From a virus (Duplodnaviria; Heunggongvirae; Uroviricota; Caudoviricetes): a stretch of 9,387 nt of DNA. The position numbers were made by a program. The DNA lies in IMG/VR virus record IMGVR_UViG_2684623171_000015; one strand, 5' to 3'. Shown here in pieces: positions 6,001 to 9,000 of this stretch (position 1 is its first letter; the number at the start of each line of letters is the position of its first letter).

Positions 6001-9000
6001 TTATTGTTCATAGCGTTTAAATCTCTCATCAATTAACCACAGCGCAACACTTCCAGAAAGTTTTGCCAGAAGGCCAGCTAATGCGGATATATCACCATCA
6101 TTTAATTTATTAGGGTACACCTCAAGAAGTCGGCAAATAATTTCTGTCTGGTGCGCACGTTCAGCGGCTTCGTGTAATGTAATTTCCTTCATTAATGCCC
6201 CCCTTTTAATTCATGTACTGCTGCAATAATTACATGTGATAAACCTGCTTTACCGGAATTACTGATTACTGAATCAATCGCCGCTTGCATATTAACGGCC
6301 TTCACGTTCTGCGTGATGCCAACGGTATAGCCGCGCTTGTTAACAGCACGGGAAAAAACGCGGAAGGTTTTAAGCACGGCACACCCCCTGACGAATACGG
6401 GCGACAAATACAGCAACACAACCTGACGGGCAACGGCTACGCGCTTCGCGTTCCGTCCAGGCGGTTACGTGGATGATTTGAGATTCTCCGGCACTCAGGG
6501 CCAGAAAACGCCAGATGTATTTATTCAGGTTGTGCGAGTCCCGCCCTTGCGGGTGTGTGGTATGATTTCTCATAGCTACCTCGATACTGTTGCTATCGTT
6601 GGTTGTTAGACGCCCTGTATGTGTGCCACCACTGCGGGGCGTTGTTATTTGGTGCATCGCACCATCTGTTTTTAACCTATCAGCAAGTGAATCGCACTTC
6701 AAGCCTTTTCTCTGAATTTTTTTTGTGTATACTGAATCGCACCAACTTAGAGAGGATTCAGTAATGGCAACAGGTTCAACAAATAATAAGTCGCAACAGT
6801 TAAATGCCAGATTCCCGCATGATGTTGTTGCAGACTTAGAAAAAAATTTAGATGAAGGTGAAAGCAAAGCGCAATTTATAGTTACTGCCGTTAAAGGCGA
6901 AATCAAACGCCGCCAGCGCCGCAAGGCCAAAGAGCAGGAATAGTCCACCAGCAAGCCAGCACACTGAGCACATTGCCCACCAGACAGCAAATCGCTATGA
7001 TGTTCGGGCTTATGTTTAGTGTTTTCCCATTGGCGACCGCCACAGGTCGCCTTTGTTTTATGTGTCATATGTTCCCCCTACGCTGCCTTACCTGAATTAA
7101 TACGATCCCGGCTTTTAACCCATTCCATAACCTCGGAAAGCAGCCAACCTACTGAACGACCACCCAGATTACGGCGTGACGGGAAATTCCCTTTTTTCTC
7201 CAGTTCGTAGCGTGTAGTGCGGCACACTCCTGTTAACTTACGGCATTCATCCTCACGGATTACGCGATCTGATAGTGATTGAAATTGTGTATTTTGATTC
7301 ATAAAAAAACGTCCTCGAACGTTGCCGAACGAGGACGATTCTAGGCGGTAGTAAAACGCCGTTTGTGTGATATCACACTACCAGCACGTGATATCACTTT
7401 TTACGTTTTTGTTGAGATTCACGCCCCAAATACTTTTGCCATGTCTGCCAATGTGTTTTTGGAAATTCTATCCCTCTGGATGCAGCTATAGAATCAATTA
7501 AATCTGCTATTTTAGGTAATGATTCCGTGTCCAGGTCTACATCACCCATTTCTGGAATAAGTTTAATTAAAGAGTAAATAACCTCATTCCTTTTTGACGA
7601 TGCTTTTGGGCTATCTTCTGTTATCTTCGGGAAGTCTCCCGTATTTTTTATATTATCTAAATCACTAGCCATCACACACAAATAGTTAACATCAAATTCA
7701 TAACCACCCTTACAAAAAACATACATGAGATTATCATCACCATACTTATTCGTAAGATGAGAACATTTTATATATTGTCTCATGCTAAATTCGACATCAG
7801 CAAAAACATATGCCGGAGTATAATAAAACCCTGATAAGCTGCTAACATAATAACATTTGATAGAATTCCCTACAGGACCAATAATGGCACTATCTAAAAA
7901 TTCAGTGTCACCAGTTAAACCAACTGTAAAATTACTTCCAAAAACAGCAGATTCATCATTGAAAGGATATTTTATTAATTCTTCCTCATTACAACCATTG
8001 ATAAAATGACATAATGAAAAATTGAATTTTTTAGCATCAATTTTTGGTATATATACAGAAATATTAAGAGCACCTATATATGCGTAATGATAAAGATCTT
8101 TTATTGCACAGCCTAACTTTTCTGCCGCTTCAGGTAACGGATAATAGAGTCTTTTAGGTAATTTCATTTGGCCACCTTCAGCATAACAATATTTTCATGA
8201 TTTCCAGCCAGCACATCGAGGCGCTCAACCCATAGATTAAGAGCGTCACGTTTTGCATCAAGATAACGGGAGTGATTATAGACTCGTTGCATTCCTGGCA
8301 ACTGGTGCGCGGTAAGCTGCTCCACAACATGCGGTTCCACGCCTAAATCGTTCAGCATCGTTGTAAACGTGTGCCGGATGTCGTGCAACGTCCAGGGGGC
8401 TTGATTAATGCGTCTGTGTGCCGTTCTTCCGTACTCTGATACGGATGATTGCCCTTTCAGTTCTCCGAGCAATAAGCCCGTGTGCCTGTTCTGCTCCACC
8501 AGCTTCATGACAAACGGCAAGATCGCTTCCGGTATTGGCCTGAATATTGCTACCTTCGTTTTGCTGTGTTCTTTCGGCACGGTCCAGAGCATTTCTTTAA
8601 AATCCCATTCCTGGACCTCAGAGCGTCTTAGCTCAGTGGTACGACATCCGAAGACAATCAGGAGGCGAATCAGGGCGCTGTAGTACGGTGGGTAAATTTT
8701 TTCATCAAGGGCGCGTAGTAATTCCCCAAGCTCCTTGTTTGTTAGTACGCGCTCGCTTATTTCTGCTTTTTTCCCAACATCACCGACAACCATATCATCA
8801 AGAACGTTGCTGATTGCGTATCGTCGTTTTCGGCAGTACTTAAGCGCCTGTTTGCATACCTGTAGCAAAAATCCGGCTGATACCGGATTACGCTTAGCAA
8901 GCTGGTCAAAACAGGCCAGCCAGTGGCGTAGCTCGCATTTTTCCAGTGGCATAGCTCCAATCTGGCTAATTATGTGTTTATTGATCCGGCTTTTCAGTGA

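What the first reader, a model, noticed from the sequence alone, without database searches (positions are those of the whole stretch)
6420..6763. Divergent switch region with three GTG(C/A)ATCGCAC operator-like sites and a long leader
A 340-bp non-coding interval separates the plus-strand RHH gene from the leftward small-ORF/primase operon. It holds three related 11-bp sites (one a perfect dyad), a near-consensus extended -10 (TGgTATGAT) and a GC hairpin (CCCGC-N-GCGGG at about 6540-6553). The arrangement resembles a repressor/operator immunity switch. By analogy with P4, whose immunity acts through a leader RNA, the long leader could also encode a regulatory RNA.
Basis: partly seen in the sequence, partly recalled or inferred. 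Interest (0 to 1): 0.5.

Follow-up and report, generated by a model that had tools for sequence, protein, structure and literature searches.

The report
Satellite island repressor switch with antisense RNA
This is the control switch of a phage-parasitic island in E. coli: a small DNA-binding protein with three matched binding sites, and probably a short antisense RNA, appear to keep the island's replication genes silent, which may answer what represses this widespread class of islands.

Summary
The three 11-bp sites are real (6652-6662, 6687-6697, 6732-6742). The '340-bp non-coding interval' is not. Positions 6370-6573 encode an Icd-like protein on the minus strand, so the extended -10 and the GC hairpin lie inside a gene. 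The true intergenic region is 6574-6763.

About 150 related loci from more than 10 genera keep the three sites in a fixed promoter frame. Site 2 fills the spacer of a leftward promoter, site 1 lies just downstream of its -10, and site 3 is fused to the -10 of the RHH gene.

The 5-bp core of GTG-N5-CAC changes in concert at the sites, in at least 9 specificity classes. It tracks residues 12 and 14 of the adjacent YlcI/YnfO protein. It does not track AlpA or Icd. An AlphaFold model of YlcI matches ribbon-helix-helix (RHH) repressors.

The TGGTATGAT promoter probably drives a roughly 78-nt antisense RNA (6573-6651, plus strand). This RNA covers the icd ribosome-binding site and ends in a co-varying hairpin that folds only on the plus strand. 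No C4/CI-type RNA is present.

The prototype island EcCICFT073 carries the same module. Binding and transcripts are inferred, not shown.

The parts
6370..6573 (-). Icd-like ORF (67 aa). It is the first gene of the leftward operon, a chain of overlapping or closely spaced ORFs running to DUF4222 and the primase (3713-5467).
   Evidence: NCBIfam NF033153, 63.5 bits. RefSeq annotation of the identical record. ORF overlaps read.
6558..6566 (+). P_as: the extended -10 promoter TGGTATGAT, embedded in icd codons 3-6 and pointing rightward (antisense to icd).
   Evidence: A -10-like hexamer sits 4-10 nt before the complement of the icd ATG in all five Icd N-terminus types. Loci without the TG have TTGATC-16-TACACT instead.
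6573..6651 (+). Predicted cis-antisense RNA of about 78 nt. It is complementary to the icd start codon, the Shine-Dalgarno sequence (GAGG, 6582-6579) and most of the 5' UTR.
   Evidence: The + strand folds at -30.8 kcal/mol (z -3.55) and the - strand at -19.0 (z -1.78). The + strand is more stable in 90 of 90 distinct homologous segments.
6573..6608 (+). Stem-loop 1 of the antisense RNA. It contains the anti-Shine-Dalgarno sequence CCUC (6579-6582).
   Evidence: The + strand is more stable in 63 of 67 distinct sequences. The anti-SD is in the loop in short-stem types and in the stem in the window's type.
6609..6651 (+). Stem-loop 2: a terminator-like hairpin (6609-6643) followed by the tail UUGUUAUUU.
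   Evidence: RNAalifold finds 13 pairs, 8 with compensatory changes. 99.2% of cells are paired. The covariation score is 0.426 against 0.169 in shuffles, reached by 0 of 500 shuffles. About 150 G.U cells against 1 A.C cell show that it folds only on the + strand.
6652..6662 (.). Operator O1 (GTGCATCGCAC; dyad 6650-6664), at about +6 to +16 of the leftward promoter.
   Evidence: The core co-varies with YlcI residues 12 and 14.
6674..6702 (-). P_L, the leftward promoter of the icd-to-primase operon: -35 TTGAAG (6702-6697), 17-bp spacer, -10 TAGGTT (6679-6674).
   Evidence: -35 TTGA[ACG]G in 91 of 97 distinct regions and -10 TAnnnT in 96 of 97, with a spacer of 17 or 18. The pattern sits at the same offset in 109 of 173 loci and is almost never found elsewhere in them.
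6687..6697 (.). Operator O2 (GTGAATCGCAC), filling the P_L spacer and overlapping the -35 by one base.
6728..6733 (+). P_R -10 hexamer TATACT, for the RHH gene. There is no recognisable -35; a T-tract lies upstream.
   Evidence: TATACT in 93 of 97 distinct regions, always 32 nt from site 3 to the ATG.
6732..6742 (.). Operator O3 (CTGAATCGCAC), overlapping the -10 and the start site of P_R. It lies 45 bp from O2 in nearly all loci.
6764..6943 (+). YlcI/YnfO-family ribbon-helix-helix protein (59 aa), the inferred repressor. The predicted beta-strand spans residues 10-17 (SQQLNARF).
7032..7061 (+). Intrinsic terminator of the RHH gene, between the convergent ylcI and alpA genes.
   Evidence: 7-bp stem with 6 G-C pairs, followed by TTTGTTTTAT.

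Best explanation
The window is a Gram-negative phage-inducible chromosomal island (PICI) of the EcCICFT073 type, inserted between clpS and cspD. The region 6558-6763 is its immunity switch, and it works in two layers.

Layer 1 is a repressor. The 59-aa YlcI/YnfO protein (6764-6943) is a ribbon-helix-helix repressor. Its dimers are inferred to bind three 11-bp pseudo-palindromes of the form GTG-N5-CAC. O2 fills the spacer of the leftward promoter P_L, and O1 lies just downstream of its -10. Occupancy of these two sites would shut off the icd-like to primase operon, which is the island's replication and early genes. O3 overlaps the -10 and start site of the protein's own promoter, giving negative autoregulation. 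Residues 12, 14 and 16 of the beta-strand align with the base-contacting Q9, N11 and R13 of Arc. These residues are inferred to read the 5-bp core, so the gene and its operators form an exchangeable specificity cassette of roughly 300 bp.

Layer 2 is an RNA. A constitutive extended -10 promoter inside the first codons of icd (6558-6566, + strand) makes an antisense RNA of about 78 nt (6573-6651). The RNA has two stem-loops and is complementary to the icd ribosome-binding site and leader. It is inferred to block icd translation. Because the ORFs overlap or lie within a few nucleotides of each other, this could also reduce expression of the downstream replication genes through translational coupling and polarity.

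Shown here: sequence anatomy, conservation, co-variation, the predicted fold, and strand-specific RNA structure. Inferred: DNA binding, repression, the existence and ends of the RNA, and its effect.
For: Coding status and island type:
- The identical RefSeq record and family models give the gene map.
- EcCICFT073 has the same gene order and the same switch, with a different operator class.

Operators:
- The three sites are confirmed.
- They are positionally fixed in about 150 loci. O2 to O3 is 45 bp, O3 to the ATG is 32 nt, and O1 to O2 is 35 or 22-26 bp.
- They sit in conserved promoter frames.
- The cores change in concert. There are 10 residue-12/14/16 combinations and 9 distinct operator cores. 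Proteins with identical residues 12 and 14 but different intervening residues share the same or nearly the same operator.

Specificity partner:
- Of 2508 locus pairs with an identical O2, only 38 differ in the beta-strand, all conservatively.
- Of 156 pairs with AlpA at least 95% identical, 67 have different operator classes. Of 473 such Icd pairs, 319 do.
- Concerted change at three separate sites cannot come from linkage alone. YlcI is the only protein encoded within the co-varying segment.

Fold:
- AlphaFold pLDDT 89.9.

Antisense RNA:
- The + strand is more stable in 90 of 90 homologues, with mean energies of -35.9 against -23.8 kcal/mol.
- The terminator hairpin co-varies, with 0 of 500 shuffles reaching the score.
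- G.U wobbles are tolerated only on the + strand.
- A -10 element is kept in every Icd N-terminus type. Where the TG is lost, a -35 appears.
- SL1 carries the anti-SD.
Against: - There is no experimental datum: no binding assay, no transcript mapping, no reporter.
- No Pfam RHH model reaches threshold for YlcI. Foldseek matches were not significant.
- Co-variation is not perfect. In the (Q,T,R) class, O3 (CTGAAC[GA]CCAC) does not match O1 and O2 (GTGACTTGCAC). About 20 loci with a 101-103-aa long form keep the SQQLNARF strand but use GTGAATACCAC-type sites.
- P_as overlaps coding sequence, so part of its conservation may be a protein constraint. In the commonest non-E. coli type the TG is one base out of register.
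- The U-tract after the hairpin is good in the window (7 of 9 U) but poor in several classes, for example UUCGCACUUAC. Termination there is uncertain.
- The simple promoter/terminator scan flagged none of P_L, P_R, P_as or the hairpin.
- The published activator AlpA (PMC6092414) is not integrated into the model except by inference.
Confidence: 0.7

Rival explanations
1. The + strand promoter in icd is mainly an upstream 'establishment' promoter for the RHH gene, and the hairpin is a leaky attenuator. Its antisense effect on icd would be a by-product, as with lambda P_RE running antisense through cro.
For: P_R has no -35. The U-tract after the hairpin is imperfect in many classes. A 9-bp inverted repeat, 6730-6738 with 6755-6763, could form only in transcripts that start upstream of P_R. 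No other + strand terminator lies before ylcI apart from the weak O1 dyad with its T-run.
Against: The hairpin is long, G+C-rich and conserved by covariation. In the window it is followed by UUGUUAUUU and then by a second dyad with a T-run at 6650-6674. P_R has a nearly invariant TATACT, which would be unnecessary if P_as supplied the transcript. The two roles are not mutually exclusive.
Confidence: 0.15
2. The three sites are bound by another factor, such as AlpA, another island protein or a host protein. The RHH protein would have a different role.
For: AlpA is the only regulator shown experimentally to control EcCICFT073 genes (PMC6092414). YlcI binding has never been tested. YlcI/YnfO homologues also occur in lambdoid prophages, in a different context.
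Against: Operator class is uncoupled from AlpA: 67 of 156 pairs with near-identical AlpA differ. It is also uncoupled from Icd: 319 of 473 pairs differ. A host factor could not explain 9 or more operator classes within the same species. The operator core tracks exactly the predicted DNA-facing residues of the RHH strand.
Confidence: 0.07
3. The conserved hairpin acts in the icd mRNA leader on the minus strand. It could be a stabiliser or a P4/P1-like same-strand immunity RNA processed from the leader, with no antisense RNA.
For: P4 and P1 immunity RNAs are made from the leader of the regulated operon. Immunity RNAs of the C4/isrK type have been reported in some Gram-negative PICIs (PMC10111431).
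Against: No C4 or isrK hit appears even at E up to 10. About 150 G.U cells in the hairpin would become A.C mismatches on the minus strand, against 1 cell of the opposite kind. The minus strand is less stable in 90 of 90 cases and has z = -1.78. The T-rich tail is on the + strand only.
Confidence: 0.05
4. The plus-strand-specific hairpins are single-stranded-DNA signals, such as a primase or replication initiation site, rather than RNA.
For: The island encodes a primase. Strand-specific hairpins that tolerate G.T pairs are typical of ssDNA initiation sites.
Against: The element sits between a promoter-like -10 and a T-rich tail, and it exactly spans a ribosome-binding site. A separate iteron plus AT-rich region downstream of the primase gene (3475-3706) is the more likely origin.
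Confidence: 0.03

Closest known systems
Phage P22 immI region (Mnt and Arc ribbon-helix-helix repressors, operators at Pant/Pmnt, sar antisense RNA). Comparison from my own knowledge.
   Different: There are three separate 11-bp sites rather than one 21-bp operator, and one RHH gene rather than two. The regulated operon starts with an Icd-like protein and encodes a primase, not an antirepressor. No Pfam Arc model is matched. The element is a satellite island, not a phage.
SymR/SymE of E. coli (PMC1891008): a cis-antisense RNA plus a transcriptional repressor controlling a toxic protein.
   Same: That paper's abstract describes a small RNA encoded in cis to the gene, with synthesis repressed in layers by a DNA-binding repressor (LexA) and the antisense RNA. 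From my own knowledge, SymR is about 77 nt, its promoter lies at the 5' end of the target ORF, and it is complementary to the RBS and 5' UTR.
   Different: The repressor here is a dedicated RHH protein with allele-specific operators. The target heads a long, closely packed replication operon. Toxicity of this Icd-like protein is untested.
P1 immI (c4 RNA-icd-ant) and P4 CI RNA immunity (Rfam C4 RF01695, isrK). Mechanisms from my own knowledge.
   Same: An Icd-type gene stands at the head of the controlled operon. RNA-level control of its translation or leader could gate the downstream genes. Immunity RNAs of this kind have been noted in some Gram-negative PICIs (PMC10111431).
   Different: C4 and CI are processed from the same strand as the target. 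Here the structure is specific to the opposite strand. No Rfam match was found.
Stl/Rpr master repressors of Gram-positive PICIs (SaPIs) (PMC6092414).
   Same: A repressor gene is divergent from the replication and packaging operon of a phage satellite. Diversified alleles suggest distinct induction or immunity specificities.
   Different: YlcI is predicted to have an RHH fold, whereas Stl proteins are, from my own knowledge, larger helix-turn-helix proteins. The literature states that a global repressor in Gram-negative PICIs is unclear and that AlpA is an activator. No anti-repressor is known here.

Membership tests
Ribbon-helix-helix (Arc/MetJ/CopG) DNA-binding proteins | A beta-alpha-alpha fold of about 45 residues | tested here: met
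Ribbon-helix-helix (Arc/MetJ/CopG) DNA-binding proteins | A match to a curated RHH sequence family | tested here: not met
   No Pfam family reaches threshold. There are only weak hits to PSK_trans_fac (E = 0.0094) and CB_ParB_C (E = 0.083). The PDB profile search finds nothing. hhalign against Arc gives P = 8e-4 with probability 24%.
Ribbon-helix-helix (Arc/MetJ/CopG) DNA-binding proteins | Base-specific recognition by alternate residues of the N-terminal strand, at repeated or palindromic sites | tested here: inconclusive
   The evidence is indirect but strong. The operator core tracks residues 12 and 14, with R16 invariant. There is no binding assay.
YlcI/YnfO family (NCBIfam NF041551) | A score above the curated cut-off of the family model | tested here: met
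   63.3 bits against a cut-off of 30.
Gram-negative PICI (EcCICFT073 type) | The gene order int, alpA, small ORFs, primase, then packaging or capsid genes, in a small island at a chromosomal att site | tested here: met
   The window and L001 show int, alpA, ylcI, icd, DUF4222, primase, terS and capsid between clpS and cspD. EcCICFT073 has the same order. Induction by a helper phage was not tested.
C4 / CI / isrK immunity RNAs (Rfam RF01695 and the isrK family) | A match to the covariance model | tested here: not met
   No hit at E up to 1 in the whole window or at E up to 10 in 6350-6850.
Cis-antisense RNA regulators (sar, SymR, Sok type) | A promoter on the opposite strand inside or next to the target's 5' end, with complementarity to the target RBS | tested here: met
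   TGGTATGAT lies at 6558-6566 (+), and the predicted start is at the icd ATG. The segment 6573-6651 is by construction complementary to the SD at 6582-6579. The element is conserved across Icd types.
Cis-antisense RNA regulators (sar, SymR, Sok type) | A discrete stable transcript detected in cells | not testable with these tools
   No transcriptome data are available. No ncRNA is annotated at this site in any of the 40 listed E. coli records, sampled from the 1595 that match.
Intrinsic (Rho-independent) terminator | A G+C-rich hairpin immediately followed by a U-tract | tested here: inconclusive
   The hairpin is strongly supported. The tail is UUGUUAUUU in the window, but in some classes only 4-5 of 12 positions are U. 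The simple scan did not flag it.
P22 immI-type module | The regulated first gene is an antirepressor (Ant) | tested here: not met
   The first gene is Icd-like, and the operon encodes DUF4222 and a primase.

The most novel reading that the evidence does not exclude
The YlcI/YnfO RHH protein with its three operators, backed by the icd antisense RNA, is the missing master immunity system of Gram-negative PICIs. Under this reading it exists in at least nine mutually heteroimmune specificity types. These are exchanged as a cassette of roughly 300 bp between a conserved icd leader on one side and alpA on the other. The operator core can be read off residues 12 and 14 of the protein, giving a simple recognition code. 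Helper phages would then induce the island by defeating this repressor, or by AlpA-driven read-through from the alpA side.
Probability: 0.4. Interest if true: 0.75.

Novelty: new variant of a known kind. Interest (0 to 1): 0.62.

Why it matters
[quoted passage not shown] The module described here is present in that paper's model island, EcCICFT073. Its icd-leader part is found in 1595 of 5426 complete E. coli genomes.

If YlcI is the repressor, several things become directly testable with a 59-aa protein and 11-bp sites:
- what keeps these islands silent;
- how they are induced;
- whether islands of different operator class are heteroimmune.

The match between residues 12/14 and the operator core is an unusually clean natural data set for RHH DNA recognition, and it could supply orthogonal repressor-operator pairs. 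The antisense RNA would add a new, very common, unannotated small RNA to E. coli genomes.

Tried and rejected
- Rfam scans of the whole window and of 6350-6850 gave only chance-level eukaryotic or viral families. A C4/CI/isrK RNA is rejected.
- The phage database (blastn, distant mode) had no match to 6150-7100.
- A possible fourth, inverted site at 6527-6540 and the CCCGC hairpin at 6540-6553 are rejected as switch parts. They are icd coding sequence, identical in loci of other operator classes and absent in other Icd types.
- The profile search against PDB sequences found nothing. Pfam found nothing above threshold.
- The simple promoter/terminator scan did not find P_L, P_R, P_as or the hairpin. 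These rest on comparative evidence instead.
- AlpA as the operator-binding partner is rejected on co-variation.
- Seven literature searches found no paper on YlcI/YnfO function, an RHH repressor in Gram-negative PICIs, or an icd antisense RNA. Subscription-only papers are not covered.
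Full report
**1. What the window is**

The window is 100% identical to E. coli strain 9000 (NZ_CP018252.2), where it forms a small island between clpS and cspD. The genes, in window coordinates, are:
- integrase, 8164-9387 (-)
- hypothetical protein, 7394-8167 (-)
- AlpA, 7078-7302 (-); Pfam Phage_AlpA, E = 3e-16
- YlcI/YnfO-family protein, 6764-6943 (+); NF041551, 63.3 bits
- Icd-like protein, 6370-6573 (-); NF033153, 63.5 bits
- three small ORFs
- DUF4222, 5464-5763 (-)
- primase, 3713-5467 (-)
- terminase small subunit and a major capsid protein

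From icd to the primase, consecutive ORFs overlap by 1-11 nt or are separated by 5 nt. The prototype Gram-negative PICI, EcCICFT073, has the same order: int, alpA, YlcI/YnfO, Icd-like, DUF4222, primase.

**2. Checking the observation**

The three 11-bp sites are real and lie where stated. So do TGGTATGAT (6558-6566) and the CCCGC..GCGGG hairpin (6540-6553).

The interval is not non-coding. Positions 6420-6573 are the N-terminal two-thirds of the Icd-like ORF, which is annotated in RefSeq and matches its family model. The true intergenic region is 6574-6763 (190 bp). The extended -10 and the GC hairpin are inside the gene.

The GC hairpin and a possible inverted fourth site at 6527-6540 have the same sequence in relatives with different operators. 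They are missing in relatives with a different Icd N-terminus. I do not count them as parts of the switch.

**3. Comparative data**

I collected 168 related loci using the YlcI protein or an alignment of it. They come from GTDB genomes of Proteus, Pectobacterium, Dickeya, Xenorhabdus, Pseudocitrobacter, Serratia and Rouxiella, from IMG/VR, and from metagenomes. Four more loci came from E. coli records.

The architecture upstream of the YlcI gene is fixed in nearly all of the roughly 150 loci where it could be scored:
- Site 3 starts within the last two bases of a -10 hexamer, which is TATACT in 93 of 97 distinct regions.
- Site 3 lies 32 nt before the ATG.
- Site 2 lies 45 bp upstream of site 3.
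- Site 1 lies 35 bp, or 22-26 bp, upstream of site 2.

On the minus strand, site 2 fills the spacer of a promoter with these features:
- -35 TTGA[ACG]G in 91 of 97 regions;
- a spacer of 17 bp (74 regions) or 18 bp (21 regions);
- -10 TAnnnT in 96 of 97 regions.

This promoter pattern is found at the same offset in 109 of 173 loci and only three times elsewhere in them.

In the window, P_L has -35 at 6702-6697 and -10 at 6679-6674. O2 lies in the spacer and O1 at about +6 to +16. O3 overlaps the -10 and start site of P_R (-10 at 6728-6733). These are classical repressor positions.

**4. Who binds the sites**

The sites have the form GTG-N5-CAC, with CTG at site 3. The 5-bp core differs between loci, and it changes in concert at the three sites.

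The core tracks the predicted beta-strand of the adjacent protein. Grouping by residues 12, 14 and 16 gives the following:

| Residues 12, 14, 16 | Operator |
|---|---|
| Q, N, R | GTGAATCGCAC |
| A or S, K, R | GTGTGGCCCAC |
| M, T, R | GTGAAATACAC |
| Q, T, R | GTGACTTGCAC |
| Q, V, R | GTGAATGCCAC |
| K, Q, R | GTGGA[AG]T[CA]CAC |
| K, S, R | GTGACGGACAC |
| Q, S, R | GTGAACACCAC |
| S, T, R | GTGTCTTACAC |

The (Q,N,R) group includes SKQVNVRV, which uses GTG[CA]ATAGCAC. Proteins that share residues 12 and 14 but differ at 11, 13, 15 and 17 use the same or nearly the same core.

hhalign places these three residues opposite Arc Q9, N11 and R13. From my own knowledge of the Arc-operator structure, those are Arc's base-contacting residues.

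The obvious confound is linkage, because the sites lie within 110 bp of the gene. Two points address it. First, concerted change of three separate sites to one new sequence requires a common reader that changes with the cassette. Second, the flanks are uncoupled from the sites:
- 67 of 156 locus pairs with AlpA at least 95% identical differ in operator class.
- 319 of 473 pairs with Icd at least 95% identical differ in operator class.
- Only 38 of 2508 pairs with an identical site 2 differ in the strand, all conservatively.

YlcI is the only protein encoded inside the co-varying segment.

There are two exceptions. In the (Q,T,R) class, site 3 does not match sites 1 and 2. About 20 loci with a 101-103-aa long form keep the SQQLNARF strand but use GTGAATACCAC-type sites.

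**5. Is YlcI an RHH protein?**

Pfam and PDB sequence searches give nothing significant. An AlphaFold model from a 52-sequence alignment is confident, with pLDDT 89.9. It shows an extended N-terminus followed by two helices.

**6. The extended -10 and a probable antisense RNA**

Between the icd start codon and site 1 lies a conserved hairpin (6609-6643) followed on the + strand by TTGTTATTT.

On an alignment of 90 distinct homologous segments, RNAalifold predicts 13 pairs, 8 of them with compensatory changes. 99.2% of cells are paired. The covariation score is 0.426 against 0.169 in shuffles, reached by 0 of 500 shuffles.

About 150 cells are G.U or U.G on the + strand, which would be A.C mismatches on the minus strand. 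Only one cell shows the opposite pattern. The whole 79-nt segment is more stable as + strand RNA in 90 of 90 sequences, with means of -35.9 and -23.8 kcal/mol. In the window the + strand has z = -3.55 and the - strand z = -1.78. The structure is therefore a + strand RNA, antisense to the icd leader.

A start 6-8 nt downstream falls on the complement of the icd ATG.

A -10-like hexamer occupies this position in all five Icd N-terminus types. Examples are TGGTATGAT, TGGTATAAT, TATGCT and TAGACT. In the type that lacks the TG, a -35 (TTGATC, 16-bp spacer) appears.

A first stem-loop (6573-6608) carries the anti-Shine-Dalgarno sequence CCUC. It is again more stable on the + strand, in 63 of 67 sequences.

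There are weak points. The promoter overlaps codons. The TG is out of register in one common type. The U-tract is poor in several classes. Nothing in Rfam matches. No ncRNA is annotated at this place in any of the 40 listed E. coli records, although the segment occurs in 1595 of 5426 complete genomes.

**7. Model**

The repressor layer is as follows. YlcI dimers at O1 and O2 block P_L, and a dimer at O3 autoregulates P_R.

The RNA layer is as follows. A constitutive antisense RNA of about 78 nt pairs with the icd ribosome-binding site and leader. Because the operon's ORFs overlap or lie within a few nucleotides of each other, blocking icd translation could also lower expression of the replication genes. 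That last step is inference.

[quoted passage not shown] The scan found no minus-strand terminator-like site between alpA and icd, so read-through from the alpA side is possible. This is untested.

**8. Comparison with known systems**

- The nearest analogue in logic is P22 immI: RHH repressors, operators at the promoter, and the sar antisense RNA.
- The nearest in antisense geometry is SymR/SymE, which also combines a repressor with a cis-antisense RNA (PMC1891008).
- P1 c4-icd and P4 CI share the Icd-headed operon and RNA-level control. They are same-strand RNAs and are not matched here.
- The role would resemble that of the Stl/Rpr repressors of Gram-positive PICIs. The founding paper states that a global repressor in Gram-negative PICIs is unclear.
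- A later survey mentions only C4/isrK-type immunity RNAs in some of these islands.
- I found no paper on YlcI/YnfO function or on this switch.

**9. Verdict**

The sites and the repressor/operator reading hold up well. The 'non-coding 340 bp' and the 'long leader' do not.

My confidence is about 0.85 in the operator-RHH pairing and about 0.6 in the antisense RNA. I class the whole as a new variant of a known kind of switch. It bears directly on an open question about how Gram-negative PICIs are kept silent.

Noticed in passing
L170 2540-2790 and L171 (E. coli STEC299 chromosome; plasmid p1RM9154-C1): Islands with the same icd leader and hairpin lack ylcI. In its place is a different divergent 57-aa ORF (MSTPLEKRSPPYQMRLPEDF...; Pfam Arc E = 0.038, below threshold), preceded by two ATGGTAATTACCAT palindromes. 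RefSeq instead annotates an 'Icd-like, partial' pseudogene on the opposite strand. This suggests that unrelated RHH cassettes are swapped at this position.
   Followed up: partly
window 3475-3706: The intergenic region downstream of the primase gene contains repeated GGTAGAGGGC / GCCCTCTACC units in both orientations, next to an AT-rich stretch. It looks like an iteron-type replication origin.
   Followed up: partly
window 250-965: The unannotated 860 bp between clpS and the capsid gene holds two 88-nt direct repeats (314-401 and 851-938, 95% identical). It also holds three copies of a palindrome, CCCGATATGGTGATCCCCATATCGGG (293-320, 819-846, 937-964). The function is unknown; it could be a packaging site or an island end.
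   Followed up: no
window 6730-6738 and 6755-6763: A perfect 9-bp inverted repeat, TACTGAATC / GATTCAGTA, links the left half of operator 3 to the bases just before the ylcI ATG. Related loci keep a partly co-varying version. It could be an extra half-site, or a 5' UTR hairpin that forms only in transcripts starting upstream of P_R.
   Followed up: partly
window 6597-6610 (alignment A2 columns 41-48): The motif GGTTAGA between the two stem-loops is almost invariant across all Icd types and operator classes. That is more conserved than pairing seems to require, and it is unexplained.
   Followed up: no
related loci with 22-26 bp site 1 to site 2 spacing (for example L116, L006, L158, L173 9760-9790): An additional inverted repeat, CCTTGA..TCAAGG, lies between the terminator tail and operator 1. 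It is absent from the window's class, which has a T-run after the operator 1 dyad instead (6650-6674).
   Followed up: no
about 20 loci, for example L047, L054, L071: A long form of YlcI (101-103 aa, with an extra C-terminal helical segment) has the same beta-strand as the window's protein. It has GTGAATACCAC-type sites and a different promoter for its own gene.
   Followed up: partly
window 6150-7100 against 5426 complete E. coli genomes: Most of the 1764 matching records match only 6494 to about 6654, that is, the icd 5' half, the leader and the hairpin. Similarity breaks off at operator 1. This marks the left boundary of the exchangeable ylcI-operator cassette.
   Followed up: partly
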